Of a DNA stretch of 64,000 nucleotides, positions 10,029 through 64,000 are shown in pieces (within the stretch, counting starts at the first letter, position 1; every line of letters begins with the position of its first letter). The translations under genes and the position numbers were made by a program. Where the stretch lies: positions 265-64,264 of the forward strand of contig CAYPCX010000008.1 of NCBI GenBank assembly GCA_964409365.1, given 5' to 3'. The notes under the pieces are model-generated. The model did not search any database. It worked only from the letters and a program-made list of their open reading frames with translations, and was not told where the DNA came from. The DNA is from an uncultured Planctomycetia bacterium. Its GTDB lineage: Bacteria; Omnitrophota; Gorgyraeia; Tantalellales; Tantalellaceae.

Positions 10029-10056
10029 TTGTGCTTTGTCATTTGTCATTAAAATT
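10029..10056 (-). repeat. Tandem heptamers ATGACAA x3-4 upstream of / overlapping the trpF start
   Basis: Plus strand tttgtcatttgtgctttgtcatttgtcatt. Confidence 0.8.
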
Positions 10057-16506: not shown

Positions 16507-16857
16507 CTACTTTAGTGATCGCTTTAAACCGCTTAACATTTTCGATATTTCAACCAACGTATCTTTAAAGTCATTAAATTTAGACTCACATATATATTGT
16601 TGATTAAAAGAAACCTCAAGAATCGCTGCACACTCAAAAACAGAACCTCTTGCTATGTCGAGAAAACGTTTAAATTCTTTACTTGCTCTTGACGATCCCT
16701 CAGCGATGTTTAGCAAAATAGACACAGCGGCTCTTCTCAACTGCTGCGTCAGGCCAAACAATTCCTCTTTTGGAAAATCCCTGGTTAGCAAATAAATATT
16801 ATCTACTAAATCGCTTGTTTTCCTATATATGTCTAATTTTTCAAAAGTGAACTTCAT
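16507..16857 (-). CDS. Four-helix-bundle protein of the 23S rRNA intervening-sequence protein family (TIGR02436-like, Avd-like fold), inserted between hisH and hisB
   Basis: MKFTFEKLDIYRKTSDLVDNIYLLTRDFPKEELFGLTQQLRRAAVSILLNIAEGSSR...FLDIARGSVFECAAILEV, the characteristic family motifs. It is markedly AT-rich (about 37% GC versus about 57% for neighbours). The start was chosen at ATG 16857. The ORF track begins 4 codons upstream at a TTG. Confidence 0.75.
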   Translation of the reverse strand: MKFTFEKLDIYRKTSDLVDNIYLLTRDFPKEELFGLTQQLRRAAVSILLNIAEGSSRASKEFKRFLDIARGSVFECAAILEVSFNQQYICESKFNDFKDTLVEISKMLSGLKRSLK

Positions 16858-16869
16858 TTCCCAACCCAA

Positions 16870-16913
16870 AACTAACAGCTAACAACCAAGAACTAATAAC
16901 TAATAACTAACAA
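16870..16913 (-). repeat. Tandem heptamer tract (minus-strand reading AGTTGTT-AGTTATT-AGTTATT-AGTTCTT-GGTTGTT-AGCTGTT) on the 5' side of the four-helix-bundle gene
   Basis: Plus strand actaacagctaacaaccaagaactaataactaataactaacaact. Together with 16474-16506 it forms imperfect terminal inverted repeats around the AT-rich gene. Confidence 0.8.
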
Positions 16914-17552
16914 CTACAATATCCCCTTGCTCGAAGGCACTTCACCCGTCCTGCGCGGGTCGAGACGCGTAGCCCTGTCCAAAGCCACGCCAAGCGCCTT
17001 GAAGACCGCCTCCAGAAAGTGGTGCATGTCCCCTTCGCCCGCTATTTCGATGTGAAGGTTCATGCGTATGTTCTTGGCGAAACTCTCAAGAAGGTCCTTC
17101 GCCAGGTCTATCGAATACCCTTCCTTGGCTTCCACCGATATCGGATAACCGGTCGAGGTCTTCTCGCTGAAACTGAAAGCGTCCCTGTTAGAGACATCCA
17201 CAAGGACCTTCGCGCTGGCCATGTCCATCGGCACCTCGGCCGAGGCCATACGGGTTATGCCTTTGCAATCGCCCAGCGCTTTCTTGAACGCCTCTCCCAG
17301 GGCTATGCCGATATCCTCGTTCAGGTGATGCCTGTCCACGTGTGTATCGCCTTCCGCCTTTATCTTGATATCAAAATACCCGTGATAGGTAAAAAGCGTC
17401 AGCATGTGGTCGAGGAAACCGATCGAGGTCGAAATGTCACTCTGGCCCGTACCATCGATGTTCAGCAAAGGTATCTCGATCCGGGTCTCCTTGGACTTCC
17501 TTTCATAACTCGTTTTTCTTGCCGCTGTTTGCTTTTTCTCAAAAATAGCCAT
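16914..17552 (-). CDS. hisB: Imidazoleglycerol-phosphate dehydratase
   Basis: RKSKETRIEIPLLNIDGTGQSDISTSIGFLDHMLTLFTYHG...DTHVDRHHLNEDIGIALG, the IGPD metal-binding histidine motifs. A GGAGGCGG RBS precedes the ATG. Confidence 0.9.
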   Translation of the reverse strand: MAIFEKKQTAARKTSYERKSKETRIEIPLLNIDGTGQSDISTSIGFLDHMLTLFTYHGYFDIKIKAEGDTHVDRHHLNEDIGIALGEAFKKALGDCKGITRMASAEVPMDMASAKVLVDVSNRDAFSFSEKTSTGYPISVEAKEGYSIDLAKDLLESFAKNIRMNLHIEIAGEGDMHHFLEAVFKALGVALDRATRLDPRRTGEVPSSKGIL

Positions 17553-17588
17553 ACCGCCTCCATGTCAACCTGTTACCTGTTACCTGAA
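17553..17588 (-). repeat. Heptamer repeats (minus strand GTTCAGG-TAACAGG-TAACAGG) upstream of the hisB RBS
   Basis: Plus strand cctgttacctgttacctgaac. Confidence 0.75.
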
Positions 17589-22740: not shown

Positions 22741-22830
22741 AGACAACTCTGGTCACTGGTTACTGGTTCCTCAATACTCCACCCTCGATACTCCTCCCTT
22801 GATACTCTACACTCAATACTCGATACTCTA
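22741..22830 (-). repeat. Repeat cluster upstream of the recA promoter: heptamers CTGGTCA-CTGGTTA-CTGGTTC then five copies of [CT][AG]ATACTC at 7/14-bp spacing
   Basis: Plus strand ggtcactggttactggttcctcaatactccaccctcgatactcctcccttgatactctacactcaatactcgatactc. Confidence 0.75.
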
Positions 22831-42000: not shown

Positions 42001-45000
42001 TCCGTTCTCCTTTTGTCCTCTCCGGTAACGGCTTCTTTCGCGAAAGCTACGTCCAGTCTTTCGTTCAATCCCGGTATTTCTCCGGCACTTCCGGTAAACT
42101 CCAGGACCGCCACCTGCGGCAATGCGCTGCTCACCAATTCCCTCTCCTGTGGCCTGTCATCAACAAAAACAAAGGCGTTCAATCCGATATCTAATGCCTG
42201 GGCTATTTCCTGTAAATTCGTCGCCTTGTCCTGCCAGTTAGCCTTGATCACGGCGAAGTCATCTTTTTCCAATACCATGCCGGGAAGACTTTCCAGAGCT
42301 TTCTCAACGTCTTTGAGTTCGTTCTTGCTGCTTATCGCCAGGATCACACCCCTCTCCTTCAGTTCCTTCACTTTTCTCTGAAGGTCCGCGTGCGGGGCGG
42401 TCACTTCGATACCGGTGAGACCGTCCTCACCCACGACCCCTTTCCAGAGCACCCCGTCGCAGTCCAGAACAAGGCATTTCTTGAGCGCGTTCGCGTCGTA
42501 TGCCCTGATCACATGGAGAATATCGCCTCTTATTGCCCCGATACGCGGCAGGTCCAGGCGGGTAGCTTTCCCGTCTTCAAAGAGCTTCTTCAGTTCTGCG
42601 AAAGCCGAGAGAACATTCGATGTTTTTCCGCACTCCATATTGTCGTCGTCGCGCCATGACCAATTAGCCCTGCCGGCGATAGCCGACAAATGGACCAGAT
42701 CATCGCGGACGATCATCCCGGCCGCGAACATCTCCTGCATTATTTCGAACGTGCCGTTAACCTCCCCCCACTCATAATCATATCCGTAACCGCCATGGCT
42801 CCACTGTAATGCCGCATCTCCTATACGGATCAACCCGGGCACATCAGCCGCCTCTACATGACCCTCGCGTAACAACTCTCCGGTTATGACGGAAGCTTCC
42901 CGTGTCAACTTCTCTTTCACTTTTTGCAGCGCGTTCTCTGCCTCTTGCCGTTTGTCGGCCTCTTCGGCTCTGGCGGCTTCTCCAAGAAATTCGTCAAAAG
43001 TGCCGATCTGTCGCACTAACACCTCAGGAGCTGTACAGCTTATGTCGATATAGTAAATATCGAAATAGCGCGCGCAGGTATTTATTTTATAAGCCGCCTG
43101 CTCTTCTAAAGCGGCATCCGGGTGTTCCTCTTCCCACGCAGAGATCTTCGCGTGCGCTTCGTCTACATCGCTGCCTTCTTTTAGCCTGTACAAAAGGCCG
43201 CGCCCTTTCTCGTTGAGGATAATATCCGAGGCGACATATCCCGATGCTTTCGACCGCTTCATGACCAGGATATCCCTGGAACTGATACGTAATCCCATCA
43301 AGCCGCCGGGATGGGCGTGGAATGACGTAGCCATTTTCCCCCGCATTTCCGGATGATCCAAAAATTCCGACAGACAGCCTAATCTGTGCAAATTCCCTTC
43401 GTCGTCAAAAATGACGGATCTTGTGCTGCCGCGGGATACTCTCCATCCTTCATCCTCGTCCATATGTATGTATCCCGATGCTTCGAGTTGGCATATATCC
43501 GTTTCACTGCTTTCCGCCTGCGGCGACAGTTCTGTCAACGACAGGCCCGTCCGCTCTTTAGTGAAGAATTCTTTCAAGGTTAACTTTTCTATGCCACACC
43601 TTACGGTGGTATCTTCCAGCCTATACGCACCACCGGCGCCGGGTTTCTCTTCCGAGCGGACTCTGTGTTGCCTTCCCTTGAACTTTAAATATGGGCTTCC
43701 TTCCTCAGGATACTTCAACACCCCTACCGGCGCGTTCTTCTCTGAACCGACAAAGAATTCTATAATGTCACCGGGATTCAGGTAAGCACCCGTAGCAAGC
43801 GTCTCTAACAACGGATCTCTTATCTCTTCCAGCATCCCTTTCAAATTTTTCATATATAAAGCTGAAGATATCCCGCCCGAGAAAACCGTTTCATCTTCGA
43901 TCCCGCCCCCGTCCAGCCGCTTGTTGTCTTTCTGTTCGAGATCCTCCACACCCGTTCTATTTCCGGCTTTATCTATGCGCCATACCCCTTCGGGCCTGAT
44001 CTCGTAAAGGTGGCCGTACTTGAAGACCTGCTCTTTGTCATCCCATACATAAGGCGGAACTACCGAGTAGATCCTTTCTCCCTTGTCTCTCTCTTTCTGT
44101 AGTTCACGTGTGAATGTTTCGCGAATGCGGTTTATATCTTTACCCTGGCCATGATAATCAGGCATTAAAATATCTACATCCGTCTCTTTGGCCTCCGATG
44201 CTCCCTCCATGATATATGGGGCGCGATATTGCCGTTCCCTCCCGATCACCGACGAACCGATCAGATAGACCGGCGGGACCCTTGAAGGCGGGATCCCCTC
44301 TTTCTTTACGTTTTCGGCGGTAGTTACCATCATCCCGTGCAGGGTAAGCAATAAAGACCTGTTCGCCTCTTTCGGCTTTGATACATCCCGAGACGGTTTC
44401 AGTGCTGACAATACGTCCCGGAATAATTCGACCAGTAATGACAATATACCGAGGAACGATGATTCCGGAACTTGCGCATTGTGGGTCAACGCCCCTTCCG
44501 CTAAGACGTCCTGTCTTTCTTCTCCGATATCGCCTGCCTTATCCTTTATGAAGTTAATGAACGGCCACGGATCATTCCTTTTAAAACTGAGAGCACTGTA
44601 TTTGCCGTACCATTCGTCCTTGTAACCGACCTCCGGCAGGCCTTCACGGGCGCGGATCCTGTTCATGATCTCCCAACCCGTCCTGTGGTTGGCATCCTCG
44701 AACGGATGCAAAGTAAAAAAGGCCAGGTGAGCCGCCGCCGCGAAGTTGGCCGGCTCTTCCAGTTGGACCCCTCTTTGATTGAAAAGTTCTACCATGCCGG
44801 CAAAGAAGCCGAATTGACGCGCCTTCGCGCGTTGTTCCGGAGCGCTGTTGATCCAGTCGACAAACTCCCGTCTCAAAATAGCCATTATTTCCACACCTTC
44901 GATAAGCATCCACCTTATACTATCCCCCGCGAAAAACGGGAATATTGTCCAGGTCCGGTACATCGCAACGGGCCTGTCCCTCAAGCCGGGAAGCCCCTCA

Positions 45001-48000
45001 TTTATCGCCTTTATGCTGCCTTCGGTAAACCTGGCCGGTCCCGCAGCCGCGCTATCCGCGTGCCGGACAGCAGCAGGTTCCGAGACTTCAAGGCCGTATT
45101 TATCTATAAGTTCCCGAACAAGTTTCTCCTGGTTTCTGGTAAGTTTTTCCGCATCAACCGCAGTATACTTATCCTTCACCAGCATCCCTGCTTCCGCCAA
45201 AGTGTGTTTCGCTCTTTCCCGGGGCATATACAAAGACATTTCCCTGCCCCCTTCGGTCAACTTTCTCATGCAAAAAGCAAGCAACTGGTGCCCCAGACCG
45301 ATGAACTCTCTTTCCCCTTCAAACTCATTCCTGTTCCATGGAGCTAGCTCTCTTCTTTTTAATTCATGCTTTTCGGCATCGTAAAAAGCAATGGCCTGGA
45401 TCTGGCCGTCATCCGACACGACATAATAACAGCTAAGATCGTTGCCACTTCGCAGGTTTGTATTGATGTTTACTATTCTCTGATACTCAGGATACCCGCG
45501 TTTCCTAAAACTTCTATCCACAGCTTCAACAAAATCAGGGTCATTAATATTTTCGGCATGAAAAACACGAAGGGCCTTTATCTTCTTTACCCTGTTGTCC
45601 AACACAAATAACTTGTCTTCCTCTGCCGCGTGCCGGGCCTGGGCCTGTTTCATCGCCTTCTCCGCAATATCTCTCGCGGTGGCTTCATCGCTGAGCTTTT
45701 TCGCTCTGTCCATCTCTTCTTTAGCGAGGTACATCGTCCCGCGGCCGGATGCCTTTTTCGGCTTCTTCCTACCGTCACTTGAGGACGTTCCCTTTCGGGA
45801 CACTACAAAAGAAAGTTCTTCCGGCTTAATAGAGCGTTTCTTCACCACACAGATGCTATAACCAAGTGGTCGAGGAACAGAGGAAACCAGATCGAACCCG
45901 CAGGTACGCAACATCCCGCTAAAACCTGTCCTATCCCATTCAATGCCCTGTCGCAGGCTATTCAGGGTACGCTGATTATTGAGGGTAAATGCCAATTTTA
46001 CACCGCATGGCATCACACCGCTTATGAGCATATGAAGGCGCTGGTAAAGTAGTTCCGAAGAGAACGGTTTGGTATTCTCAAAACAACCCCTCAAATAAGC
46101 CTCCCTATCTTCTTGTCTAACAAGCTTTTGGGACTCATCGCTTATAACGCGTAGTTGCTCTTCTATTAAAAGAGAATCCATATTGCGTATAGCCAGGTCG
46201 AACGTACCGTGGTAACTATCTATTAATTGAGAATAGTTGTGTGGTCCGGACTCACCCCTAACGAGTTCTCTTCTCAGTTTGGCATAATTGTTGATCGCGC
46301 CACAATCTACCGTAAATTCGGTTCCGGAATAATCAGATGAGATATTGCATTTATCCAAAATACCCGCCAATTTCCGGAAACCGTCCTTATCCTGATACCA
46401 TATCAGGAAGTCCAACCCGTTTTCTCCGGACCTTACCTCTATCGCATAGATCTCTCCGCTCAGGCCCATGATCTCCAGACCGTTCAGTTTCAGTAGGTCT
46501 TCATCCTTGAAGTCTAATGGATCCCTTTCCTGCAACCGAACGGTCTCTTGAAGGAACCGATCCGTCCCGGCGGAATCGTGTTCGCCTTTGATCGCTTCGA
46601 TCACCGGCGTCATGACCTTTATATAATTCGCGGTAAGGCTCGCGCTTACGGCTATCGAATCACTCAGCGCTCTTTCTTCCCCCTCTGAGATCTGCAGGTC
46701 CTTAAGATCTATGGAATTTATTTTTTCCATTAGAGCTTCAAGTGAAACGGCAAAATCGTACGCATTAAGAATATCCTTTTTGTAATCATCCAATGTAGGC
46801 GTTTCATCGACCTCATCCCGGAACATCAGGATGCTCTGCCAATATTTATATAAGGAGCCTTCGGCGGGATACTGCTCCCTTCTCAATGCGTCAAACTCGT
46901 CGACATATCCGGAAAATGATCTTACCGTTTCATTGTCTGCCGGCTCCTGAAGAAGGTTGAACTGTTTGGTGAACCAGTCTATGCCTGTCGTCCGGAACCT
47001 GAAACCGTCCGCGGACAGCCTTGCCATCGTATTCGCATCACCGATAGCAGCAAGCGCATTGTCACGGTAAGGGGAAGGGCCGTCCGCGCCGCGATCCAAG
47101 AAATACCAGCCTGATTCACATAACACCCTTCCTTCCTCGACCAGGCTATCAAGAAAGTTTTGTGCATCTTCTTCCGCTATACCCGCTCTTTCGCCGACCA
47201 CTACAAAATCTAAAACGGCAGGGGCAAGATCCAGGGTTTCGAGTATTTTCTGTTTATTCTCCTCTTCCCCTTCGCCTCCCTTCCTAATAAACGCCGTTCC
47301 TATTGCCATTCCTATTATTATGCCGAGCATTAGCAATAACCCGATCCCACTACTGAATCCAGCTGTCTTAATAATGCCGGGTGTTGCTGCTGGAAGCTGG
47401 GGACCGACCAAGGCAGATACACCAAAACCAGCGGCGATGCCGACACCCACGGCAACCAATATCCCGAGGACATCTTTGCCTTTCCCTCCGCGCTTTGGAT
47501 CGGTCTCTTTTTCACCCCTTGTTTCCGTGGCTTCTTTTTTCCGCTTTTGCATCGCCTCATTCAGCGCCTTCTCGTAAAGATCCGGCAAATATTTCTCCAT
47601 GTACTGTTTAGCCAAATCGCGTTGTTTTTTCTTCTCATCATCCTTTTTTTCTTCCTGATCTTTCCTGCGTGCTGCTTCCTGCTGCTTTTGCTTCACATCA
47701 GCCAATGCTCTCTTGTAAACACTCGAACCCGGATACGCTTCCTTTAAATATCGTTCGGCTACTTCGTGCCGTTTTCTATCATCCGTCCCTTTTTTCCGTG
47801 CCGCCATACCGAATACAACAAACAGAGCCGTCGCAACAACGGGCCATTGAGAGCTAAGCCAGGCGGAAAGCCGGGCGGAACCGCCGGATAGGCCGAGTAC
47901 CCCAAAAACAGCCTTTAAGACGGCTTTCACCATATCGCCAAGGGGGCCTGACACAAGCATTATGATAAAACCGGTTACGAGCACCGCTACGACAATATAG

Positions 48001-51000
48001 CCGAATTCCCTGCGGCCGAATTCACGTTTGAACGGCCCGGGTGTGATACTGTAAGACCTCGCAATGCGGCTCTCGGTTCCGGATGGGACGTCCTGCCTTT
48101 CACCGCTTCTTATGTCATCGGGCTGTAGTAGTGCGGGAGCTGGCGTCTTTGCCTTCTGCGGCGCGGGCGCCGGCGGACGGGCCAGGGCCGTCCGGCAAAA
48201 AGCCCCTATAGCCCTTTCGCCCAACTGCTTTAATCCGATACGTGTTTCGGCGATATGCATCCCGACCACGTTGCCCCGCGATATCCTCCTGGCGTTCTCC
48301 TGCAGTTCATCCTCCGACAACATGACATCCGTATCGAACGATACGAACACATTCTCGCCTTCGAGATCATCATCCATGACGTGCCGGGACATCCTTGTTT
48401 TCGACTTGAGCGCCATGAAAAGAGCAATGTTATTCCGGACCAGCTCTTCCCTGATATTTTCAAAAGTGGAAAATTTCTCGCCTTCTCTGGTCCTGTCTGA
48501 AAGATATTCGATCGCGCGGGCTATGCCTTTCTCCTGGTTTTCACCAAGCCCGCCCAGAAGGCCCAGGAACTCTTCCATGTCGAATCCTTCTATCCATTCA
48601 TCGATGAACCTGAAAAAGCCATCAAGGGGTTCCATCTGCGGAGAACCCGTTATGGACAACTCCCGGCCGGTCAAAATGCCCTTTGCAATTCCAAAAGGCC
48701 AGAATCCCGCGTCATCGAACCCGATTGAATGTGATTCCCCAGAACCTGATGAAGACTCCCTGGAACCAAAGTCTAAATGGTGATCCAGCGAAACGGCCCT
48801 GAGGGCGCCGCCTGCATATGCTTCCTTGAGGGCCTGGTAGAATGGAAGCGAAAACCGGTGCTGTTCCTCCAATAATACGGGAACGGCCCCTTCGCTGAGG
48901 GCCGTGTTAACGGCATGCCTGAAATAATCAAGCGCCGTTTCGTAACTCTGCGCCATCGCCCCCCTGTCGGGGGTGACTATTGAATGAATAACGGCGCCTT
49001 CCCCCAGAACCTGTCTTATCCTGTTCGACGGCATATTCCTGACAGAAAAGTTCATTACATAAAGCCGCGGGCGTTGGGCCCGGAATTTCGCCCGGTTCAG
49101 CTGTTCTTCGTCTTTCTCCGGGTCGGGGCTCACGGAGAGATCCCCGCCCCAACCGTATCCACGGGCTTCCCGTATCTTTGCTATGGTCTCCCTGGCCTTT
49201 TTCCGCGCCTCTTCCGGGGTCATTTTCGGTCCCGGTCTTTCGAATTCATCCAGGGACTTCCTGTATGATCCATCGAACCTCTCTTCTATTTCCTCCCTGG
49301 AGAATGATAAAATATCCTTAAGCGCTTTTACGTTCCCGTATCCTTTGCCGATGATCTCCTCTATATCCGTTCTTCCCGTATCGACAGGCCTGCCTACCTT
49401 TTCAAAAACTTCGAAATCCCCGACCAGTTTCAGTCTGATCCCGACCTCGGTCTTTATGAGGCGTATATTCGCTATGTGATGGTCGTAATGCATCCTTTTG
49501 TCACGGTCAAAATACTTGCACCTGTGGCCTACGTATCCGAGGTGGTGGATCGCCGCCGTGATCTCCGCGCTTTGATCTACGATCATCCCGTCCAGTTCCC
49601 CGCGGGTTATTCCCAGCTCTTTGACCAGGCCGTCAAGTATTGACGGCGAACAGAACTCGAGCCTTTTTCCGTCCTCATATTCAAAAGCCATGACGCACAA
49701 GGGGCTTTCGCGGTCAAAGACCTCTTTTTTGCCGTAAAGATCGTAAATACCGGCGGGGAACTTTTTGTCGAAAAGCGGCCTCATGCAATATTCCCTGTCC
49801 GGGAAAGCGCTTAATATGTCCGAAGCGATCGCGCGCCGCTTCTTTGTGAGCACTTTTTTCTTGTCCTCTTCTTTGCCGGGGATAACGACCTCGAATCGAA
49901 AGGCGATATTCCCTTTATCGTCTTTCCCGAAAATGACATGCCTGCGGAAAGACTCCGTTATCGGGCACATGAAAAGGTTGGAGCCTATTTTGACCGTCAG
50001 GCCCTCTTCCAGGGCATATTCAAGAGGCGCTCTCGGGTCTTTACTTGTCAATTCGAACGGAAATCTCTCCCTCAATGACGTTGCCAGCTTGAAGAATTTT
50101 CTCGCGTTAGTTTCATTCTCAAAAACGGCATCCCATGCCTGGGCAGGGGTGTTTATTTTCTTTGAGATATAAAGTTCTGAAGGGGCTTTTTTCCGTCCTT
50201 TGAAGAGAGCTGCGTGCGCTGCCAGCAAAGAAAGGAAAAGCAATGCGGAAACCGGACCAAAGCTGCCTTTCACCACCGGCGGGGCGAACGCGGGGTGGCT
50301 GAGCCAGCCGGAGACCTGGGCAAGCAATCCGGGAGCTACAACCGCCGCCAAGCAGATAGCGATACCCGCCAATACCACCAAAGCAACCCCGCCCACAAGA
50401 GTATTTCCCTGGTCTTTTGGTTTATTCTTTTTCTCTAATTTTTCTATTTTACGCAAGCAGGCCAGGGCGAATACGCGCACCGCTTCTACTTTCTCCTCTT
50501 CCGTTCCGGCTTCTTCGATCCGCGCGATCTCTTGCCCCAGTAAAGGCTTCACTACTAAGTCATCTATCTTTACGATTTCCCTAAGCGCCCTTGCGGCTGC
50601 CCTGTGTATATGAACGTTTTCATATGGTTCGATCGTTGGATCATCCGTGGTCAAAACATAAGACAGGATCTTCAACAAAAGACAACAGCTTTTCGATACT
50701 TTCCGTCGCTCTTCTTCGGGTTTAAGAGGATCTGACGCATCAAGCATGCGCTTTTCAAGCCTTATTAAAATATCATTTAACATCAAAACACGCGTACTGG
50801 CGTCTAACTTGAAGAATTGCACGAGGTGTTTATCGGCAACCAGGTCACCGGAATCTATCTCAGGCGTCTCGGGCTGTCCGGATCCCCCGACAGCCAGACC
50901 TAATAACGCGAACGACAGTATCCCAGCGAAACCACCAAAGCCCTTCAGGACCGGCGGGGCGAACGCGGGGTGGGCGGCGAGACCGGAAAGCTGGGGAAGC

Positions 51001-54000
51001 AGTCCGGCCACGGCAATAATAAGAACCCCTAAAATGACCACTGAAACAAGAACCGGTGTGAGCGCCGCCCCTTGCGCCCTGTTGTAGGAAACGGGCTGGA
51101 CCTCGACCAGTTCTTTATCTCTTTTCCCTTTCTGGTAGGTCACACCGATATGCCTTTGAGCTTCCCCGACCACATCATATCCGGGCTGGAACGCCCTCAG
51201 ATGCGGGCTTACCTTAAGAGCATCAAATACACTCAGGATCTCATCAGTGGTGGCGTTTAACATGGACGCAAGTACCCGGACGAGCGACTTGCGGTAATCT
51301 AACCCATTATCACGGATGGCACCCACAACCCTTCTTGCCAACTCTTGTCTGGGCGGAGGAAATTCTGCTAACGCGTTCTCGATAGCCCCTTCAACAGCTT
51401 CTTTGAACTCATTTTCCATAGCCGCTATCGGCGGTGATTCCGGCCTTTTGCTTGAAACCACCATACTGTATATTCCCCTCTCAGCTTCAATTTTGTGCGG
51501 GTAAACAGGAATGATCCCCGGCCACAACCGGACTACTTGGGCAGCCTTTTCCATTATGTTCAAGGGAACCTGGTAATCGCCTTTTTCCCAGTGGGACAGC
51601 GCGTTCTGTGAAACATGCTCACCATCTTCACTTAATCTTTCCGCAAATTCCGCATGGCTTAATTCCAGGCTCTTACGGAGCATCTTCAACCTCTCCCCCG
51701 CTTTGTCACGATACAGGCCTGCCACCATTTGCATGACACGCGGAGAAATCGAACGTATGCCGCGTTCCCAGCTGCATATTGTGATCTTCGGTATGATCTT
51801 TTCCGGATCCAGCTGTTCACCGAATTCCGCCAGATACAAGCCCAGCGCCATCCTGAACGCCCTCATCATTTTTCGTGACTGGTCCCGGTAGGTCATCTCT
51901 GTTTTATCCATGATCTCTAATGGGATCATATTCTTGCCGGTCTCCCAGCTGCTGACCGTTGTCGCAGGCACGGGGCTTTTTTCATTCAACAATTTCCCGA
52001 ACTCGTCCTGACTTAAGCCGAGCGCTTCGCGTAACACCCGCATCCTTTGCCCCGCTTCTACCCGGTAAACTTTTTCCGCGCTTTCCATGACCTCGAAAGG
52101 AATCTCAGTCATACCCTGTTCCATCCCCCCGACTTTGGGCACATCCATATAGCCTTCCTTGCTCAGCCGTTCTTCAAACTCTTCCTGAGATAACTTCAAC
52201 TTTTTACGGATCGTTTTCAATCTTTTCCCCGCCCGGCCACGGTAAAGCTTTTCCGCTTTCTCCATCATATCGAAAGGAACCGGGCTCTCACCCTTCTCCA
52301 GAGCCTTGATCTTTCTGTGATGCACCGGATACTTTTCATTCAGCAGCATCCAGAATTCTTCCTGAGTCATCCCTAACCCCACACGGAACCCTTTTAACCT
52401 TTTTCTCCCGCGTTCAAGATAGAATCTCTCCGCATCCTTCATGCGCTTGGAAGGAACGGTATATTCCCCGCGTTCCCATATGCCGAGGGTCCTCGGATGT
52501 ATGGGGTTTTTCTTGTCCAGTTCTTCTCCAAATTCTTCCCTGGTCAACCCAAGTTTTTCACGGAATTCCCTTAATCTTTTTCCCGCAAGGCCTGGGTAGA
52601 TCCTTTCCACGTTTTCCATCACTTCGAGCGGAACCGGGCAATTACCCTGCTCCCATAGCGACACCATGTCCAGAGATACATCTCTTTTGTCATCTAACAG
52701 TTTGCCTAATTCCCCCTGGCTCAACCCCAACATCAGCCGGATATCCCTTAATCTATTTCCTGCATGACCGCGATAGACTTTTTCCGCTTCCGTCATTATG
52801 TGTAAAGGAACACGGTTTTTGCCGTTTATCCACTGGCTGAATGTGCCGCCATAAACAGGATCTTTATCGCCCAATAACTTTGCAAATTGACCCTGATTTA
52901 AACCCGACCTTACCTGCAATATCTTTAGCCTTTTTCCCGCGCGATCGCGGTAAAACTTCTCTACCGCTTTCATGACAGCGAAAGGAATACTTCTTACACC
53001 GCTTTCCCATTTGATAACGGCGCCTACACGTACTGGCTTTCCGATATCCAGCTGCTTTGCAAATTCTTTCTGAGTCAAACCCAGGCTTTCCCGGAACGAG
53101 CTCAGCCTTTTCCCTGCCCGACCGCGGTAGAGCTTTTTCGCATCGTCCATCACGTCAAAGGGGATCTCGCTTTCACCGTTTTCCCAATCTCCTATCTTCC
53201 CCGGACCTATGGGATCTTTTTCGTCCAGCTGTTCCCCGAATTCTCTCCGGGTCAAACCCAGGCTTTCCCGGAACGTCCTCAGCCTTTTCCCGGCCCGATC
53301 ATGGTAGAGCTTTTGCGCGACTTCCATAATATGTAGAGGGACCGGATGCGTACCGTTCATCCATTTATAGAACGTACTCGGGTGTACAGGATCATTCTTG
53401 CGCAGCAGTTCCCGGAATTCTTCCACGGCTAAATCCAGTCTTTTCCGGATCGCCTGCAGTCTTTTGCCGGCAGTTTTCCCGGGAGATTCCTCTACTTCGC
53501 GCTGTGCCTGGAACATCACCCGGTCCAACAGTTCTTGGTCTTTCTTTGGGTCGGGACTTGCAACGAAATCCCCGCCCCGGCCAAATTCACGGGCTTCTTG
53601 TATTTTTGACCTGGTTTCTCTGGCTTTCTTTTGAGATTCATCCGAAGTCGTTCCCGTTTCTGGTGTAAGCGTGGCCCCTTGTGTCTTGCTCCTACCCCGA
53701 CTGACTGGCCTCTCAAAACGAAATATCGGTGTATCTTTCGGCCTCCTGGCGACAACATGGAGCCATCCGGCTTCCAGCGACTTCGTTCCATTTTTCTTCT
53801 CTTCTTTGATCTTTTCATCCAGAGACGAAAGCAGTATCTTCTGCAGGAACTTTTGCTGCTTCTTATCATCCAGTTTGCCCCAGATAAAAACGGTCACGTA
53901 GGGGTCGGAATAGAAATCTCTCATATCATCAAGGGGTATGCGAACCTTTTTCTTTTCAACCTCAATATCGGTAAAACCCGCCTGCCGGAGGGCTTCTCTA

Positions 54001-57000
54001 TAATCATCCAAAGATCTCGGATGTATCTTCTCGCGCGCGGCTATTATTTTTTGCACTTCATCCAGGCCCACTTTCTCCCGCAATTTGTATATAGCATTTA
54101 TCACGACCGCGTTCATGAAACCGAACATCGGGCAGAGGTTCTCCTTGAAATAAGCCGTATTGAAAGATAAAACGCCTCCCTCATTCATGGCGGAATACAC
54201 TTCCCGGAACACATCCTCATAATCATCTATAAGGTGCATGCCGTTGAAGCAGATCCACACGTCAACAGGTTCAGCCACTTTCTCCGCGAACTCCTCGGCC
54301 ATTCCCTGCACGAACGTTATCCGCCTGTCGCCCCTGAACCTTTTCTTTGCCTCTTCCAGGGATGTTCTATCGGGCTCCAAAGCGGTAACACTGGCCTGGT
54401 CACCCAGACAAGGAAGAAGCACACCTAAAGACCTGCCTGTCCCGGTCGCGACTTCGGCAACATGGCCGTTTTCGCCTTCTATCTCGGCAAGTTTGATAAG
54501 TTCTCTGTTGTTATCATCGCTCCATTCAGCGCCCGCGAACTTGTCATAACCGGACGGCTTCGCAACCTCGTCCTTGCCTTGCCGCGTTATCAGCGCATAC
54601 ACGTCCTTCCCCAGCGTAGCAAAAGTTAAACCTGTCATACCTCCCGCTACCGCAAAACATATGAACACCAGAACACATCCGGCAAGACTGATCGGATAGC
54701 TGCTGCAAAAATAATAAACAGCCCCTACCCCGGACGCCAATGCCAGAAGAAAAGCGAAAATGCCTCCCCGGGTCCCAACGGAGATCTTGAAAGACGCTAT
54801 CTTCTTCCACGGCATCTTCCACGCCAGAAGGATAGCCGCCGCAAGTGCCGCTACTATACCCAGCACCTGAGCGCCGAGAGCGACCACGGCGATAGTAATG
54901 ACAGATAGCCCCCCGAGAAGTTCGAGAAGAGTAACTCCCCGGATCTTTTTGGTTTCCCTTTTCTTGCTCACATCAACTATTAAGATCCCCTCCTCGTCGG
55001 GTTTGGACAGAACGGTTTTGGCCCCTGATGACACAGCGCAAGAGTGGCCCCTTTCAAACCGATCCGGACGATCACGATACGCGATATCTTCAGGTTTGAC
55101 CGCCGTATTCACGAATATCGCCGTTGTTTTGCAATCATTGCTGAGCTTTTCCACCCGTGATTGGCCCTCGGAAGGTATCGTCGAAGAAGGAACTATTATT
55201 AGATCGGCTTTACGCGCATCCCTTGACACTTGTAAATAAGCCGCCTTATCCGCGATTATGCGGTCGGACTCCATGCAAATAAGAGCACAAACCTTGTGAC
55301 CTTTTAATGTAAACCTGCGGTCCTCTGATTCGTGGGAGAATTTTGTGAACTTCTTGGCCCCGCCCATTGTCCGGATGACATAATACGTGATATCCAACCC
55401 TGAATTCACCAGACTGAATCCCAAAGCTATACCCGTCTCACTGGCCACTTTCGTTAAAGCGGACACCCTTTCTTTCTCTTCTTCTTCGGTCCTCAGAGAA
55501 CCCCGGTCCAGGAGCTCAGGGAAAAGCACCAGATCAGGGGCGTTTTCCTTGAATCTTGTTTTCAACGACTTAACTATAGCTGCCATCCTCCGGGTATTAT
55601 CCCCAAAATCTCCTCTCTCGATCTGTGCGCACGCTACCCTTAATCCCCTCTTTCTGACCCCGCCTTTCAGTTCAACAGGGGGGACCAGGCCGGGATACTC
55701 CTCTTTCTGCTCTTCATCCTCTCCCGCGAGCCTTCTCCACTTCTTTTCTTCCTCTTTATTGGTAGTATCTACGAAAAACCCCCGGGGGAAATTCCCTGCG
55801 GCCAGGACCATCATCGAAAGAATACCGAGCATAAATATCGTCATGGGCCATCCTGTCCCGAATCCCGCCATCAATTCGCCGGCGGGCGCGGCCTGCCCGC
55901 CGGATGAGAGCGCTTTAGCCGCTATTCCAATGGTGGCTGCCGCCGCGATGAACATCCCGAGAACAACATTATCGTCATCATCTTCTTCTTTTTCTTCTTC
56001 TTTGAGATCTTCCGCATAAACGGTCGTGAGTATGAAATGCGCCGTCCATTTCACGTATTGTGCCGCTTCATACGCCTCATCATACCCTTTGCCCATATTG
56101 TCTATCGCCTTATTGGACATCTTTTCAAGGCCGGCCAGCTTCTCTCTGGCGTCCTCAAGGACGTTCTCCAGGCCTGCCCTGTTCATGCTCCAGATATCAT
56201 CCTTGCTGAAAGCGAAACCTGTTAGTTTCTCTTCCGCACGGGCAGCACTCTTGGCTTTTCCGGGTCTTTCCCGTTCCAACCTGGCATCAACTATACTTAA
56301 CTGGTCATCGACCAGGCTTTGTATTTTCGCGAATTGTTCATCGGCCTTCATCCAGGCGATCAACCCCTTACCCAGATCAAGCATCTTTAAAGCGTGGCTG
56401 TAATGCTCGGCTGCTTTTTCAGGGTCGTTATCCCGGACGGCGTCACCGCGTTCTTTCTCTCCCACGACATCCTGCTCTAACCTCTCCAACTGTTCGGTCT
56501 TTCCATCGTCATTCTGTGACGACCAGGAAGTAACGCTTTTAAGGTCTGATATCACTATCGGCGGCTGTCCGTTGGAAACACGCTCTTTATTAGACTCGGC
56601 CAGCAGGCTCTTCAATGTATATGGCGCGCATCCCATCCTCGCCATCATTTTCCTCGCGATGGCCGTACCTTCATATTCAGCGCTCACTTCCTGATACGCT
56701 TTATTGAACCTCTTGACCGTAAAGTGCTTCCTGCTGAATACAGGCGCGGGGAGACCTTCTTCTTTACGTCTTTTTTCATCTTCTTCTATTAACCTTGCGA
56801 GGACCACATCGTTGACACCCAAAGCCTTCTTTATCTTTGCCTGCATGGGATAGTCCCCTTCTTTTTCCAGTATTTCCTCATACACCTTCCTGAAGTCATC
56901 GACCGTCAGCGGTGCTCCCCATTCCCGTGCCGGTAAGAAAGTCGTAAGGGCCACCAGCGCAATCACGTTGAGAGGGCCGAGCATATTACAGAGCACGTAA

Positions 57001-60000
57001 AGAAGCTGGAAGAGACATCCTGAAACAAACGCGAATATCCCCACCTGGATGGAATACACAAGGAGATTGCTTTGCAGCCACCGGGGCAGTTTGAACTTTT
57101 CCTGGAGCCAGTCGATGATCTTGTGGGTCCATTCGTGGGGGAGGTCGATAAGTTTTCCCAATATGGAATCGTCCTTATCCAGTTTGATCTTTTTCGTTCT
57201 AAGATCAAAAGACGCGGTCTCGCGGCGGTCAAAGAAAACGGAAAAACCTCTTTTTTGGGGAATCGCGTGCGTCGGCGTCGACTCAACGATAGGTATATCC
57301 AGAGCGCCGCTCTCTATTGCCCCGCTTACAAGAAGCAAGAATCCGGCCAGGCCAAACCCGATCCAAATGGCCGGGTGCAAGTTCCAACTCGCGGCATAAA
57401 TAGCACATAACCCCGGCACGACCGCGACCCAAACATCAAATGCAAATGCCGGGACGCGTATCATAGCATCCGTATCCAGGTTCATGCGGCCTATCATCGC
57501 TCTCAAAAAGAGCAGCACTCCCGCCGCGCCGAGCCCGACCGATACGGCCGGGTGCAACCCTAATACTATGGAAAGAACGGAAAGAGTCCCCGCAGCAAGA
57601 CCTGCCCGCGCCGCGCCCCGGATGGTGGATTTCTGCTCCCCTCCCATCTTTTTTTTCAATCTTTCTATTCCGGCTGCGACTTTTTTCCGCTCTTCTGTTT
57701 CAGCCATTTTCTGTTCTTCTACCCTTGCAACTTCTTCCAGACAAATAGCTTTTTCTTTTTCCGGCAGTCTTTCAACAAGAAGTCTGATCTGATCAGCCGT
57801 CTCTCTTACAGCATCTTCCGCCACAAACTTCCCGCCACTGAGACTGTTTAATTGTTCCCTTATTGTTCTCAAATTTTTGTTTTTATTGACTTGCCTTATC
57901 TCTTCGTCTTTTTGATCTTTTTCTTTTTCGGCTTCGTCGATCAGGTGTTCTATGTCTTCCGGTATCCTCAACTGGCGCAAACAAGCAATGCAAGCTTCAA
58001 TCTCTTTAGCCTTTTCCCGGAGTTCTCCCCATGGGTCTTCCCCGTCCGGATCGATCTTTCGAACATCATTCCGCAAAAACTCTAACCTTAATAATGCTTC
58101 ACCTATCTTATGCATCCTGATCTCTTTGCCTTTTCGGTCTTTTTCGATCACGGCTTCATGCACGGCTTCACGAACCAGACGATTACTTCTCACAAATCCA
58201 AACTGGCGCAAACAAGCAATGCAAGCTTCGATCTCTTTAGCCTTTTCCTGAAATTTCTCCTCCGAGCCCTCTTCTGCCGGATCGATCTCTTGAACATCTT
58301 TCCGCAAAGTCTTTACCTTTGAGAATGCTTTACCTACCTTATTCATCCTGTCTACTTCAGCTTGCAGTTTCTCCTCCATTTCAGCCGCTTTACCGGGATT
58401 GAACGCCGATAACTTTTTCAGCGCTTCCCTGGCCTCACCGACCTGAGGCAGTGAACCATAATCCTCTTCTGTTATCACAGAAGACATCATGCTCATGGGC
58501 ATGTTAACTTTATTCAGAAGCTCTTTATATCCGGTGCTGCTCTGCTCGAATCGTTTCGTGAGAGCCTCTTCGGTCATCATAGACAAGTTGTTCGAATCGC
58601 GTTCTGAGGCAGGTTTGCTTTCCCCGTTGGCCTGGAGAGCGTTTTCGATCCCCTGCACCACGTCATCTATTTCGGAAAGTTTCCGGTTCACCTCGGCCAT
58701 GGCTGCCGCGGGATCCTTCTTATAATTTGCCAATAATCTATTCTTAGCCTTGCCGACTTTTTTCCCGGTTTCTGTTTCTTTAGCCGTCTGTTCGGCGAAC
58801 TTTTCCAGGGATTGCCCGATATCGGAACAGGCTTTGATCTCTACATACGCTTGTTTCGTTTTTTCGGCTGCCTGTTTCAATCGCCCTAAAAGTCCGTACA
58901 TGCGCGCACAGACAATATCGGCATACATCTTTGCCAATCCATCCTCACCGGTAAATTCGGGAACAGTGTGACCGGTTTCCTGTTCCAATCTCCCTATGCC
59001 GCTTTCCAGCATCTTGGCAACCCCGGACCCGCCGTTCACCAGCCCGGCTTCATTTATCGAAAGTACCGCGGATAACAGTGTCTTTGCTTCTTCCCCGCTC
59101 CTTTCGTTCATATATGAGGTTGTGTCTTCTTCTATCATTTCCGGGGATAACAGCAAAGCCTCCCTCAGCTCTCTGGCAATCTGCCTCTGATCTTTGCTTC
59201 CTGAAGCGACCATGCTATCAACGAGACACAATGACACTAAGGTCCACATGCGCTCCTGCCACGACCCTTCTCCCTCCAATACCGGCGGTGAGGAGGCAGC
59301 CAACTGTTCCAGACGCCTGATGTCATCCTCTTTTTGCCCAAACCTTGAAGATATCCTGGTAAATTGTTCTTCGCTGATAACGAATTCGCCTCTTTCATCG
59401 ACGGCGACAAGCGCGCGGATCAGCGGGGTCCAGATCCTGGAACTCTCGCTATGGATCAATGACTGGGAAAAGGCGTCCAGCCGTTCCTGCTGGGGACCCG
59501 TCAAATGGAACCAGTTCCACTCTGCAGCAAGCTTTTGCCCCGGGCTCAATTCTGCCGATTTTTCCGCGGCGGTGGATCCATCCTCGGAAACCGGTTCCTC
59601 GGCGGCAGGCTCTTCTGCGGCAACCGGGGCATCCTCTGAATCGGCGCCTGCATCGGCCGTGCCTTCATCCTCAACCGCTTTTTCCGCTTCATCCGGCGAG
59701 GCTGGTGAAGCCACTTCATTAGCCTCGTCCTCGGGGATTATGGGCTCTCCGTCCGCGGCGACCAGCTCCACGCTTTTATCTTCCACGAAATAATCGGGTA
59801 TTCCGAAAAACCTCTCCACCAGGGCTTCCGTGACCCTGACATGGACCAGGTGCCTGAAAATGTCAAAACCGAACCTGTCAAAAGCCGCCCCGTTACCCAG
59901 GAGATTATCGGCTTCCTTGCCCAGATCTTCTACAACTTCCGCGACGATCTCCTTGTGGTCCACGACCTCCTGGAGATACTTGCCCAGGGCGCCTTCCAGG

Positions 60001-63941: not shown

Positions 63942-64000
63942 ATATACTTTTCTTCCTCCGGGAGTTTTTTCGACCTTCTTGGAAGCGATCTCGCCCTTTT

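What the first reader, a model, noticed from the sequence alone, without database searches (positions are those of the whole stretch)
51530..53480. Eleven tandem Xre/Cro-type HTH domains embedded in a giant membrane protein
Arrays of HTH_3-like repeats are normally single domains in small transcription factors. Here 11 diverged copies (about 59 aa each) sit consecutively inside a 13-kaa protein that also carries TM segments and enzymes. The copies are not identical at DNA level (about 60-75% identical), so this is an evolved array rather than an assembly artefact. It could act as a multivalent DNA/RNA-binding platform, or be repurposed for protein-protein interaction.
Basis: partly seen in the sequence, partly recalled or inferred. 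Interest (0 to 1): 0.7.

Follow-up and report, generated by a model that had tools for sequence, protein, structure and literature searches.

The report
Eleven fused HTH domains in giant protein
A 16,000-residue membrane protein of an uncultured Omnitrophota bacterium contains eleven back-to-back copies of the small DNA-binding fold used by phage repressors, predicted to be welded into a stiff rod, and this is an unusual but not unprecedented use of a very common domain whose function here has not been tested.

Summary
Window 51534-53483 (minus strand) encodes 11 units with an exact 59-aa (177-nt) period and no linkers, inside an ORF of 13,300 aa. The ORF runs off the window and is called as 16,071 aa on two identical public contigs. 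Pfam gives HTH_31 at 9e-56 and HTH_3 at 6e-53 for the array. Nine of 11 units match on their own, and AlphaFold models of single units superpose on P22 c2, 434 repressor, Aca2 and HigA2 at 1.3-2 Å. Three things depart from a canonical XRE domain: a 4-residue insertion in the turn, no fifth helix, and a last helix predicted to continue into the first helix of the next unit. That continuation would make the array a rigid rod. The array shares a 1,190-aa stretch free of membrane segments with a SAM methyltransferase, so it is probably cytoplasmic. It is the most basic part of an acidic protein. Its most variable positions lie on the recognition helix and the loop after it. Related 59-aa-period arrays occur in other long Omnitrophota proteins, and looser XRE arrays occur in Nocardia and in Firmicutes-like metagenome proteins. 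My best guess (0.45) is a membrane-tethered multivalent nucleic-acid binder. A pure scaffold is the main rival. This is a new variant of a known kind.

The parts
24039..64000 (-). Giant ORF. It is 13,300 aa from the ATG at 63941 and the frame stays open to the window edge. Identical public contigs call it at 16,071 aa, which puts the true start about 8.25 kb beyond the window.
   Evidence: Pfam domains lie along the same frame. There are roughly 35-40 hydrophobic segments.
54618..54914 (-). Cluster of hydrophobic (membrane) segments upstream of the array, aa 3010-3108.
   Evidence: Kyte-Doolittle scan; sequence.
53961..54506 (-). Class I SAM-dependent methyltransferase domain, aa 3146-3327, of the UbiE/BioC/arsenite-methyltransferase-like small-molecule type.
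   Evidence: Methyltransf_25 at 7e-12 and Methyltransf_23 over aa 3146-3327. PDB and NCBIfam matches.
53484..53960 (-). Lysine- and arginine-rich linker between the methyltransferase and the array, aa 3328-3486. Its last 73 aa are duplicated at aa 4900-4957 with 51% identity.
53307..53483 (-). HTH unit 1 (aa 3487-3545)
53130..53306 (-). HTH unit 2 (aa 3546-3604)
52953..53129 (-). HTH unit 3 (aa 3605-3663)
52776..52952 (-). HTH unit 4 (aa 3664-3722)
52599..52775 (-). HTH unit 5 (aa 3723-3781). Its junction with unit 6 reads 'YPGLAG', a possible hinge, and neither structure model covers it.
52422..52598 (-). HTH unit 6 (aa 3782-3840)
52245..52421 (-). HTH unit 7 (aa 3841-3899)
52068..52244 (-). 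HTH unit 8 (aa 3900-3958)
51891..52067 (-). HTH unit 9 (aa 3959-4017)
51714..51890 (-). HTH unit 10 (aa 4018-4076)
51534..51713 (-). HTH unit 11 (aa 4077-4136). It is 60 aa long, with a 1-aa insertion in the turn.
51060..51533 (-). Tail of 158 aa after the array (aa 4137-4294). It matches no family.
   Evidence: NCBIfam found nothing.
50883..51059 (-). Membrane hairpin downstream of the array (aa 4295-4353) with the loop motif 'HPAFAPPVLKG'. The hairpin is repeated at aa 4518-4580.

Best explanation
SHOWN. The region encodes eleven consecutive XRE/Cro/cI-type helix-turn-helix domains with a fixed 59-aa period and no linkers. They sit in a 1,190-aa stretch without membrane segments (aa 3108-4296 by window numbering, about 5879-7067 of the full protein). 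That stretch belongs to a roughly 16,071-aa multi-pass membrane protein of an Omnitrophota bacterium.

PREDICTED. Each unit has four helices: H1, H2, an extended 7-residue turn, the recognition helix H3, and H4. H4 of one unit runs on without a break into H1 of the next as a helix of about 25 residues. The array would then be one stiff helical rod or superhelix that displays eleven different recognition helices, not beads on a string.

INFERRED. The rod lies in the cytoplasm, because it is contiguous with a SAM-dependent methyltransferase. It works as a membrane-tethered, multivalent nucleic-acid-binding module, most probably for double-stranded DNA. Many individually weak HTH contacts would add up by avidity and hold this part of the giant enzyme-carrying protein against the nucleoid, or against a set of DNA sites. 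The basic H1/junction helices would supply backbone contacts. The variable H3 faces would supply whatever base preference exists.
For: Domain identity:
- Pfam gives HTH_31 at 9.2e-56 and HTH_3 at 5.8e-53 for the array.
- Scanned one at a time, 9 of 11 units match HTH_31 and 8 of 11 match HTH_3.
- The NCBIfam matches are to XRE-type families, led by the MqsA family at 1e-32.

Fold:
- Two AlphaFold2 models, of units 2-5 and units 6-10, have pLDDT 89.4 and 88.4 and pTM 0.74 and 0.73.

Rigid fusion:
- That covers 7 of the 10 junctions.

Hallmarks of DNA-binding XRE domains that are kept:
- the Arg in H1 and the 'W-E-x-G' motif at the end of H3;
- S/T followed by Q or R at the start of H2;
- 'T-(I/V)' in H3.

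Charge:
- The array carries a net +24, against -13 expected for 650 aa of this protein. That is the 98th percentile of all 650-aa windows, and the most basic window of the protein overlaps the array.
- K/R occupancy is 59-93% at five H1/junction positions across 42 units of the family.

Variability: it is concentrated on the exposed H3 positions and the loop after H3, the canonical DNA-contact surface.

Compartment:
- No hydrophobic segment lies between the SAM methyltransferase and the array.
- In the homologue P0004, the array module is followed by what looks by eye like an HPr-type segment, with no membrane segment in between.

Precedents:
- An extended H2-H3 turn is compatible with DNA binding in the POU-specific domain (my own knowledge). 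The array has a sub-threshold similarity to the Pfam Pou family (E 2.4e-7, no single stretch passing).
- Membrane-anchored transcription regulators that bind DNA from the membrane are described as widespread in the abstract of PMC10269533.
Against: - No binding was tested, and I had no access to model coordinates. Whether the recognition helices are exposed, and whether the spacing fits DNA, is unknown.
- Net charge per unit ranges from -3 to +8. Four units are net acidic, and about half have acidic residues in the loop after H3, where canonical repressors carry Lys or Arg.
- The H3 positions are poor in the Gln, Asn and Arg residues typical of base-reading helices, and rich in Gly and Pro at the start of the helix.
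- High variability on H3 is equally what relaxed constraint would produce.
- The 4-residue insertion in the turn is the least confident part of the models.
- The alignments behind the models have only 5 rows.
- A stiff rod of head-to-tail HTH units has no solved precedent for DNA binding.
- Repeat arrays in Omnitrophota giant proteins are usually read as scaffolds (10.64898/2026.06.07.730766).
- Topology predictions for such proteins are reported to be unreliable (10.1101/2023.11.21.568195).
Confidence: 0.45

Rival explanations
1. The array is a structural rod or docking scaffold. The HTH fold has been recruited as a compact four-helix building block. The fused array would then serve as a rigid spacer or ruler, or as a platform that binds other proteins, as the membrane-anchored XRE-type HTH of RodZ binds MreB. 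It would bind no nucleic acid.
For: - Continuous junction helices and an invariant 59-aa period without a single linker indel are what a structural solenoid needs.
- Nearly all the conserved positions are fold determinants rather than surface residues.
- Several units are net acidic.
- Tandem-repeat scaffolds are a recognised class among Omnitrophota long proteins: 65% carry a Pfam family repeated at least twice and 6% at least ten times.
- RodZ is an established case of an XRE-type HTH used for protein binding (papers listed; the mechanism is from my own knowledge).
- The nearest whole-model analogues in the PDB are designed helix-fused repeat proteins such as 5H7B, although only at noise level.
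Against: - The array is distinctly basic within an acidic protein.
- The S/T-Q motif at the start of H2, which contacts DNA phosphate in canonical XRE domains, is kept in most units.
- Scaffolds in these proteins are normally HEAT, TPR, WD or NHL repeats, not HTH.
- The RodZ model scores only 29.8 bits against a cut-off of 208.
Confidence: 0.3
2. The array binds RNA rather than DNA. Candidates are the protein's own roughly 48-kb mRNA or ribosomes during co-translational membrane insertion. MBF1 and Aca2 are XRE-type HTH proteins that bind rRNA or mRNA.
For: - There is a weak NCBIfam match to aMBF1.
- The array is basic overall.
- The RNA-binding ability of Aca2 and MBF1 is from my own knowledge.
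Against: - The Aca2 match covers only the generic HTH half of that model, positions 4-58 of 118.
- Nothing in the sequence separates RNA binding from DNA binding.
- No candidate RNA partner was searched for in the window.
Confidence: 0.1
3. The array is a latent transcription factor. The giant protein is cut by proteases at module boundaries, and the HTH module is released to regulate genes.
For: - Cleavage of Omnitrophota giant proteins into smaller polypeptides has been proposed (10.1101/2023.11.21.568195).
- A 73-aa linker element just before the array is duplicated before another module, at aa 4900-4957.
- In the homologue P0004, modules including the HTH array are bracketed by a recurring 'EGRSLPN' linker motif.
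Against: - No peptidase domain was detected in the window part of the protein.
- No cleavage data exist.
- Eleven fused domains is far more than any known regulator uses.
- The linker repeats may simply be module boundaries.
Confidence: 0.1
4. The array is an assembly or gene-calling artefact, or decaying junk sequence inside a very long ORF.
For: Two of the eleven units fall below the Pfam thresholds when scanned alone.
Against: - The units differ from each other by about 48% at the DNA level, so a collapsed or expanded assembly is impossible.
- Two independent assemblies agree at 99.996% or better over the 22.7 kb compared, which holds the 3' end of the gene but not the array.
- The frame is intact over 39.9 kb.
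- The fold-determining residues are conserved in all 11 units and in homologues from other organisms.
Confidence: 0.02

Closest known systems
XRE/Cro/cI-type HTH domains (Pfam HTH_3 PF01381, HTH_31 PF13560), for example P22 c2, 434 repressor, C.BclI, HigA2, MqsA, Aca2
   Same: - The sequence family is the same.
- The H1-H4 core is the same, at rmsd 1.3-2.0 Å.
- The signature is the same: Arg in H1, S/T-Q at the start of H2, and W/I-E-x-G at the end of H3.
   Different: - Canonical domains occur as one copy per small soluble regulator that dimerises. Here there are 11 head-to-tail copies in one chain.
- The H2-H3 turn carries a 4-residue insertion.
- There is no fifth helix.
- H4 is predicted to be continuous with the next H1.
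POU-specific domain (eukaryotic relative of the lambda-repressor-like fold)
   Same: It has a lengthened helix 2 and turn compared with phage repressors, yet still binds DNA (my own knowledge). The array has a sub-threshold similarity to the Pfam Pou family (E 2.4e-7, no single stretch passing), as does the homologue P0010 (E 4.1e-9).
   Different: The POU-specific domain is a single domain joined by a flexible linker to a homeodomain. It is not a rigid array of like units. The insertion here is 4 residues and has its own 'x-P-x-x-x-P-(V/I)' signature.
Soluble multi-HTH XRE proteins: Nocardia WP_357182290.1 (761 aa), metagenomic Firmicutes-like proteins with 4-12 units (P0122, P0077, P0012), and Wolbachia Wmk with two HTH domains
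   Same: They carry several XRE HTH domains in one polypeptide.
   Different: - Their units are complete five-helix domains spaced about 72-90 aa apart, with visible linkers such as 'TTDYLLG...'.
- They have no membrane segments.
- The proteins are under about 1.4 kaa.
- None has been characterised, as far as my searches show.
Related 59-aa-period HTH arrays in other long Omnitrophota or metagenome proteins: P0002, P0003 (4709 aa), P0004 (6932 aa), P0007 (Omnitrophica PIU41961.1), P0011, P0001 (5353 aa, 15 units)
   Same: - The unit consensus is the same: 'AG.RLK..R..LG(L/M)(S/T)Q.EFG..L.P..P(V/I)...T(I/V)..WE.G...(V/I)P..(I/V)M..A'.
- Spacing is about 55-65 aa, and the host proteins are very long.
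   Different: - Copy number differs, from 3 to 15.
- The neighbouring domains differ: DHQ synthase, a histidine-kinase-like ATPase, and a segment that looks by eye like HPr.
- P0001 and P0003 show no membrane segments.
- No homologue is close enough to pair units as orthologues; the best is 37-38% identical.
Omnitrophota giant proteins (West-Roberts et al. 2023, 10.1101/2023.11.21.568195; 2026 preprint 10.64898/2026.06.07.730766)
   Same: - The host protein fits the description: more than 10 kaa, many membrane segments, a mosaic of methyltransferases, sugar transferase, GNAT, HAD and nucleotidyltransferase domains, and internal Pfam repeats whose DNA-level tandem signal has decayed.
- RecA places the organism nearest to Omnitrophota.
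   Different: - Neither paper mentions HTH, XRE or DNA-binding domains.
- No SecA_DEAD, dockerin or peptidase domain was detected in the part of the protein that lies in the window.
RodZ (membrane-anchored XRE-type HTH that binds MreB)
   Same: It is an XRE-type HTH on the cytoplasmic face of a membrane protein, used for something other than transcription (for the papers; the mechanism is from my own knowledge).
   Different: - RodZ has one HTH, one membrane segment and a periplasmic domain.
- The NCBIfam RodZ model matches only 24 residues, at 29.8 bits against a cut-off of 208.
Alpha-solenoid nucleic-acid readers (TALE, PUF, PPR) and designed helix-fused repeat proteins (PDB 5H7B)
   Same: The resemblance is one of concept only. 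These are rigid arrays of small helical units, each presenting a variable surface. 5H7B fuses three-helix bundles through shared helices, and it appears among the Foldseek hits at noise level.
   Different: There is no homology. The units here are 59-aa HTH domains, not 34-36-aa helical hairpins. No one-unit-to-one-base code is known or shown.

Membership tests
XRE/Cro/cI-type HTH (Pfam HTH_3 / HTH_31) | A profile match above the curated threshold | tested here: met
   For the array, HTH_31 scores 186.5 bits against a cut-off of 27, and HTH_3 scores 177.2 bits against a cut-off of 23. Scanned alone, 9 of 11 units match HTH_31 and 8 of 11 match HTH_3 at E <= 0.01.
XRE/Cro/cI-type HTH (Pfam HTH_3 / HTH_31) | The lambda-repressor-like helical fold, with H2 and H3 in HTH geometry | tested here: met
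XRE/Cro/cI-type HTH (Pfam HTH_3 / HTH_31) | The conserved signature: Arg in H1, S/T-Q at the start of H2, and hydrophobic-E-x-G at the end of H3 | tested here: met
   R11 is present in at least 90% of units and G42 is invariant. E of the W-E-x-G motif is present in 82% of the 11 units and 90% of the 42 family units. Q or R after S/T is present in 8 of 11 units.
XRE/Cro/cI-type HTH (Pfam HTH_3 / HTH_31) | A tight turn of 3-4 residues between H2 and H3 | tested here: not met
   All three PDB profile alignments (2PPX, 8TAC, 1SQ8) need a 4-residue gap there. The models show a 7-residue loop. The POU-specific domain shows that this does not by itself exclude DNA binding (my own knowledge).
XRE/Cro/cI-type HTH (Pfam HTH_3 / HTH_31) | A fifth C-terminal helix closing the domain | tested here: not met
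   DSSP finds four helices per 59-aa unit. H4 continues into the next H1.
XRE/Cro/cI-type HTH (Pfam HTH_3 / HTH_31) | Binding of DNA through helix 3 | not testable with these tools
   This needs EMSA or a co-structure.
Omnitrophota giant membrane proteins (multi-enzyme, membrane-segment-only class) | A single ORF of more than 10,000 aa | tested here: met
   13,300 aa lie in the window. The gene is called at 16,071 aa on identical contigs.
Omnitrophota giant membrane proteins (multi-enzyme, membrane-segment-only class) | Encoded in an Omnitrophota genome | tested here: inconclusive
   The best RecA matches are Omnitrophota MAGs, at 64-75% identity. No genome of the same species is in the collection, and no phylogeny was made.
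Omnitrophota giant membrane proteins (multi-enzyme, membrane-segment-only class) | Many transmembrane helices interspersed with diverse enzyme domains | tested here: met
   A Kyte-Doolittle scan finds roughly 35-40 segments. Pfam finds methyltransferases, Fic, HAD, EamA, GNAT, Bac_transf and NTP_transf_2. No dedicated topology predictor was available.
Omnitrophota giant membrane proteins (multi-enzyme, membrane-segment-only class) | A divergent SecA_DEAD domain, reported in most full-length giants | tested here: inconclusive
   It was not found in the 13,300 aa inside the window. The N-terminal 2,771 aa lie outside the window.
RodZ-type membrane-anchored HTH | A single N-terminal HTH, then one membrane segment, then a periplasmic domain, with a match to the RodZ model | tested here: not met
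   NCBIfam PRK10856 scores 29.8 bits against a cut-off of 208 and aligns only 24 residues. The architecture is different.
Linker-separated multi-HTH XRE proteins (Nocardia and Firmicutes-like) | Complete XRE domains separated by linkers, with a period of about 72-90 aa, in soluble proteins | tested here: not met
   The period here is exactly 59 aa with no linker. The comparison proteins have spacings of 72-94 aa or more and no membrane segments.

The most novel reading that the evidence does not exclude
The array is a natural 'HTH solenoid': a rigid, helix-fused chain of XRE domains that follows a DNA duplex, or a set of repeated DNA elements. Each unit's hypervariable recognition helix would read its own short segment. 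That would be a modular, in principle reprogrammable, DNA reader of a new kind, built from the commonest bacterial DNA-binding fold and used to pin a giant membrane machine to defined chromosomal sites. The unusually dense intergenic heptamer arrays of this genome would be one conceivable target.
Probability: 0.1. Interest if true: 0.85.

Novelty: new variant of a known kind. Interest (0 to 1): 0.5.

Why it matters
XRE-type HTH domains are the most common bacterial DNA-binding modules, and they are almost always studied as single domains that dimerise. A conserved family of linker-less arrays with a 59-aa period, predicted to form stiff rods inside giant membrane proteins, would show a new way of using this fold. 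It could be a multivalent tether between membrane and nucleoid, or a structural solenoid.

It also gives a concrete, expressible 650-aa fragment with which to start experiments on the otherwise intractable giant proteins of Omnitrophota. Published domain surveys of those proteins do not mention HTH arrays.

If the units read DNA one after another, the architecture would interest people who engineer proteins.

Tried and rejected
- The word-indexed protein search found nothing with the array or with the 11-unit profile. Only the full HMMER scan and a profile that included homologues gave hits.
- Scans of genome contigs and metagenome contigs with the array found no relative. I therefore could not pair units as orthologues or measure selection on helix 3.
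- tblastn of the giant protein against 80 recA loci of other bacteria found no homologue and no synteny.
- The first attempt at a four-unit alignment from overlapping windows was aligned out of register by MAFFT. I discarded it (A1).
- The afdb50 fold library was not available. Whether similar fused arrays exist among AlphaFold DB models is unknown.
- Model coordinates were not exposed. Rise and twist per unit, exposure of H3 and DNA docking could not be computed.
- I checked whether the variable recognition helices could be targets of a diversity-generating retroelement, because a bAvd/23S_rRNA_IVP-like ORF lies at about 16.5 kb. There is no template/variable repeat pair and no reverse transcriptase in the window, so I rejected the idea.
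- I checked whether the neighbouring methyltransferase is a nucleic-acid methyltransferase. It resembles small-molecule enzymes (UbiE, BioC, ArsM), so it gives no support for nucleic-acid binding.
- The idea that the intergenic heptamer arrays are the binding sites could not be tested. The arrays are enriched in this genome but are not a feature of the whole phylum.
- A whole-protein blastp self-comparison returned nothing until I cut the protein into chunks.
Full report
**1. What is in the sequence**

The minus strand carries one ORF from 63941 down to 24039, of 13,300 aa. The reading frame is still open at the window edge.

The window is 100% identical over 22.7 kb to ENA contig ERZ27256770:k141_351798 and 99.996% identical to JGI contig 3300017987:Ga0180431_10000154. 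On both contigs the gene is called at 16,071 aa. The true start therefore lies about 8.25 kb beyond the window, and full-length numbering is window numbering plus 2,771.

Downstream, on the same strand, come cinA/pncC, thpR, recA, alaS, his and trp genes, and lepA. This is an ordinary bacterial chromosome. The best RecA matches are Omnitrophota MAGs at 64-75% identity.

**2. The repeat**

Translating 51530-53480 shows 'AGKRL'-type motifs 11 times at exactly 59-aa spacing. The units fill window 51534-53483, and only the last carries a 1-aa indel.

| Measure | Value |
|---|---|
| Protein identity between units | mean 36%, range 17-58% |
| DNA identity, whole units, all against all | mean 52%, range 35-66% |
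| DNA identity, best-conserved 104-nt core, 9 copies at exact 177-nt spacing | 61-83% to the reference copy |

Tandem Repeats Finder sees no array of period 177. The array is old and diverged, and two assemblies agree over the 22.7 kb compared, which holds the 3' end of the gene but not the array, so an artefact is excluded.

**3. Domain identity**

- Pfam on aa 3470-4160 gives HTH_31 at 9.2e-56, HTH_3 at 5.8e-53, HTH_19 at 5e-26 and Aca2_YdiL at 5e-19.
- Scanned one by one, 9 of 11 units match HTH_31 and 8 of 11 match HTH_3.
- The NCBIfam matches are to XRE-type families, such as MqsA-, HipB-, DicA- and RstR-type.
- A profile of the 11 units finds 2PPX, the designed binder 8TAC and the 434-derived 1SQ8 in the PDB. 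Each alignment needs a 4-residue gap between helix 2 and helix 3. The units therefore carry an extended turn, 'L-x-x-K-x-P-V', where canonical domains have 'l-G-v-S'.

**4. Predicted structure**

I ran two AlphaFold2 jobs on 5-row alignments that included homologous arrays.

| Model | pLDDT | pTM |
|---|---|---|
| Units 2-5 | 89.4 | 0.74 |
| Units 6-10 | 88.4 | 0.73 |

Each unit has H1, H2, a 7-residue loop, H3 and H4. In all seven junctions covered, H4 runs without a break into H1 of the next unit, forming helices of 25-26 residues with block pLDDT of about 86-96. The extended turn is the least confident part. Junction 5/6 ('YPGLAG') was not covered and could be a hinge.

- Foldseek agrees and finds no solved structure that matches several units at once.
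- The AlphaFold DB library was unavailable.
- Coordinates could not be read, so the geometry of the rod and the exposure of H3 remain unknown.

**5. Pattern of conservation**

I compared the 11 units here with 31 units from homologues.

- The conserved positions are the fold determinants: Y1, A5-G6, R8-L9, R13, L16-G17-L18, S/T19-Q20, E22-F23, L27, P32-V33, T37-I38, W41-E42-x-G44, V48-P49, M53 and A56.
- The most variable columns are 34-36 and 39-40, the exposed face of H3, and 45-47, the loop after H3.
- Basic residues are concentrated on H1 and the junction, with 59-93% K/R at positions 2, 4, 8, 10 and 13.
- The array carries a net +24, where 650 aa of this acidic protein average -13. That is the 98th percentile of all windows, and the most basic window of the whole protein starts at aa 3270 and overlaps the array.
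- Individual units range from -3 to +8, and about half carry acidic residues in the loop after H3.

**6. Setting in the protein**

Hydrophobic segments lie at aa 3014-3102 and at aa 4297-4353. The second is a hairpin with an 'HPAFAPPV' loop, and the hairpin is repeated at aa 4518-4580. Nothing hydrophobic lies between them.

That 1,190-aa stretch holds, in order:
- a class I SAM methyltransferase (aa 3146-3327) of the small-molecule type;
- a basic linker;
- the array;
- a 158-aa tail that matches no family.

The array is in the same compartment as a SAM-dependent enzyme, and the other domains of the protein use acetyl-CoA, ATP or NTP, and nucleotide sugars. I therefore infer that it lies in the cytoplasm. 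This inference has a caveat: published work warns that topology calls for such giants are unreliable.

**7. Relatives**

An exhaustive HMMER scan of 1.84 billion representative proteins found only 72 proteins at E <= 1e-3.

- The best hits are long proteins with arrays of the same unit: P0001 (5,353 aa, 15 units), P0004 (6,932 aa, 7 units), P0003 (4,709 aa, at least 4 units), P0002 (a fragment with a 59-aa period), and P0007, which is Omnitrophica MAG protein PIU41961.1.
- Their neighbouring domains differ: DHQ synthase, a histidine-kinase-like ATPase, methyltransferases, and a segment that looks by eye like HPr. The array therefore behaves as a portable module.
- A second, looser kind of XRE array exists in soluble proteins. 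Examples are Nocardia WP_357182290.1 (761 aa) and Firmicutes-like metagenome proteins with 4-12 complete five-helix units spaced about 72-90 aa apart with linkers.

The linker-less 59-aa form appears, in this search, only in these long proteins, several of which are of unknown origin.

**8. Literature**

- The two surveys of Omnitrophota giant proteins describe membrane-rich mosaics of enzymes and frequent internal Pfam repeats whose DNA-level tandem signal has decayed. Neither mentions HTH, XRE or DNA-binding domains.
- A search for tandem XRE HTH repeats gave nothing relevant to such arrays.
- Membrane-anchored transcription regulators that act from the membrane are described as widespread in the abstract of PMC10269533.
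- RodZ is the known case of a membrane-anchored XRE HTH that binds a protein (for the papers; the mechanism is from my own knowledge).

**9. Explanation**

Shown: there are eleven XRE-type HTH domains with a fixed period and no linkers, and they are basic.

Predicted: the domains are helix-fused into a rigid rod.

Inferred, with confidence 0.45: the rod is cytoplasmic and membrane-tethered, and it binds nucleic acid, most likely DNA, multivalently. It would hold this part of the giant protein at the nucleoid or at particular sites.

| Rival | Confidence |
|---|---|
| A purely structural or protein-docking solenoid | 0.3 |
| RNA binding | 0.1 |
| A regulator released by proteolysis | 0.1 |
| An artefact | 0.02 |

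Variability on helix 3 fits unit-specific recognition and relaxed constraint equally well, and I could not separate the two without orthologues.

**10. Verdict**

The feature is a new variant of a known kind: a known fold, a known class of host protein, and a repeat architecture that has not been described. Interest is 0.5.

Noticed in passing
window 3759-3778, 4497-4530, 6888-6924, 10020-10050, 13930-13985, 16477-16506, 16862-16916, 17568-17586, 22749-22828: Most of the intergenic spacers I checked in the housekeeping gene cluster carry a short tandem array of a 7-nt unit, or of 14 or 21 nt, and the unit differs from spacer to spacer. The density is 3.75 arrays per 10 kb, against 0.65-0.69 in 80 recA loci of Omnitrophota and other bacteria. 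The genome that encodes homologue P0001 has 1.7 per 10 kb. The function is unknown.
   Followed up: partly
window about 16507-16857 (-): A small ORF of 116 aa from the 23S_rRNA_IVP/bAvd four-helix-bundle family lies between hisB and hisH, with heptamer arrays on both sides. It is called on the JGI contig but not on the ENA contig. No reverse transcriptase and no template/variable repeat pair occur in the window.
   Followed up: partly
window 53499-53717 (aa 3409-3481) and 49071-49244 (aa 4900-4957), minus strand: A 73-aa element, 'ERP..KKARET..KI.EAR.(F/Y)G.GGD...SPDP.KD..L.R..F.AQR', lies directly before the HTH array. It recurs with 51% identity before a weak arginase-like segment. It may mark a module boundary or a processing site.
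   Followed up: no
window 50883-51059 and about 50202-50390 (aa 4295-4353 and 4518-4580), minus strand: A membrane-hairpin module with the loop motif 'HPAFAPPV(L/V)KG' is repeated (48% identity over 54 aa). Hairpins would keep the flanking soluble domains on one side of the membrane.
   Followed up: no
window 57970-58350 (aa 1865-2016), minus strand: A tandem duplication of a 77-aa (231-nt) unit, 80% identical at the DNA level and 49% at the protein level. This is much younger than the HTH array.
   Followed up: no
window 33183-36197 (aa 9248-9424 and 10079-10253), minus strand: A GNAT acetyltransferase region is duplicated within the giant protein (36% identity over 190 aa).
   Followed up: no
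P0004 (6,932-aa metagenome protein), aa about 3800-6932: The modules of this homologous long protein are separated by a recurring linker, '(P)EGRSLPN..SGGEE'. By eye, the modules are a trypsin-like protease, TPR-like repeats, the HTH array and an HPr-like domain. The linker may be a conserved boundary or cleavage motif.
   Followed up: no
L084 33747-36062 (JGI 3300032138 Ga0315338_1000003, a 2.17-Mb contig): The genome that encodes the 15-unit homologue P0001 also carries an 11,493-aa gene 7.7 kb away on the opposite strand. HTH-array proteins and giant genes therefore co-occur there too.
   Followed up: no
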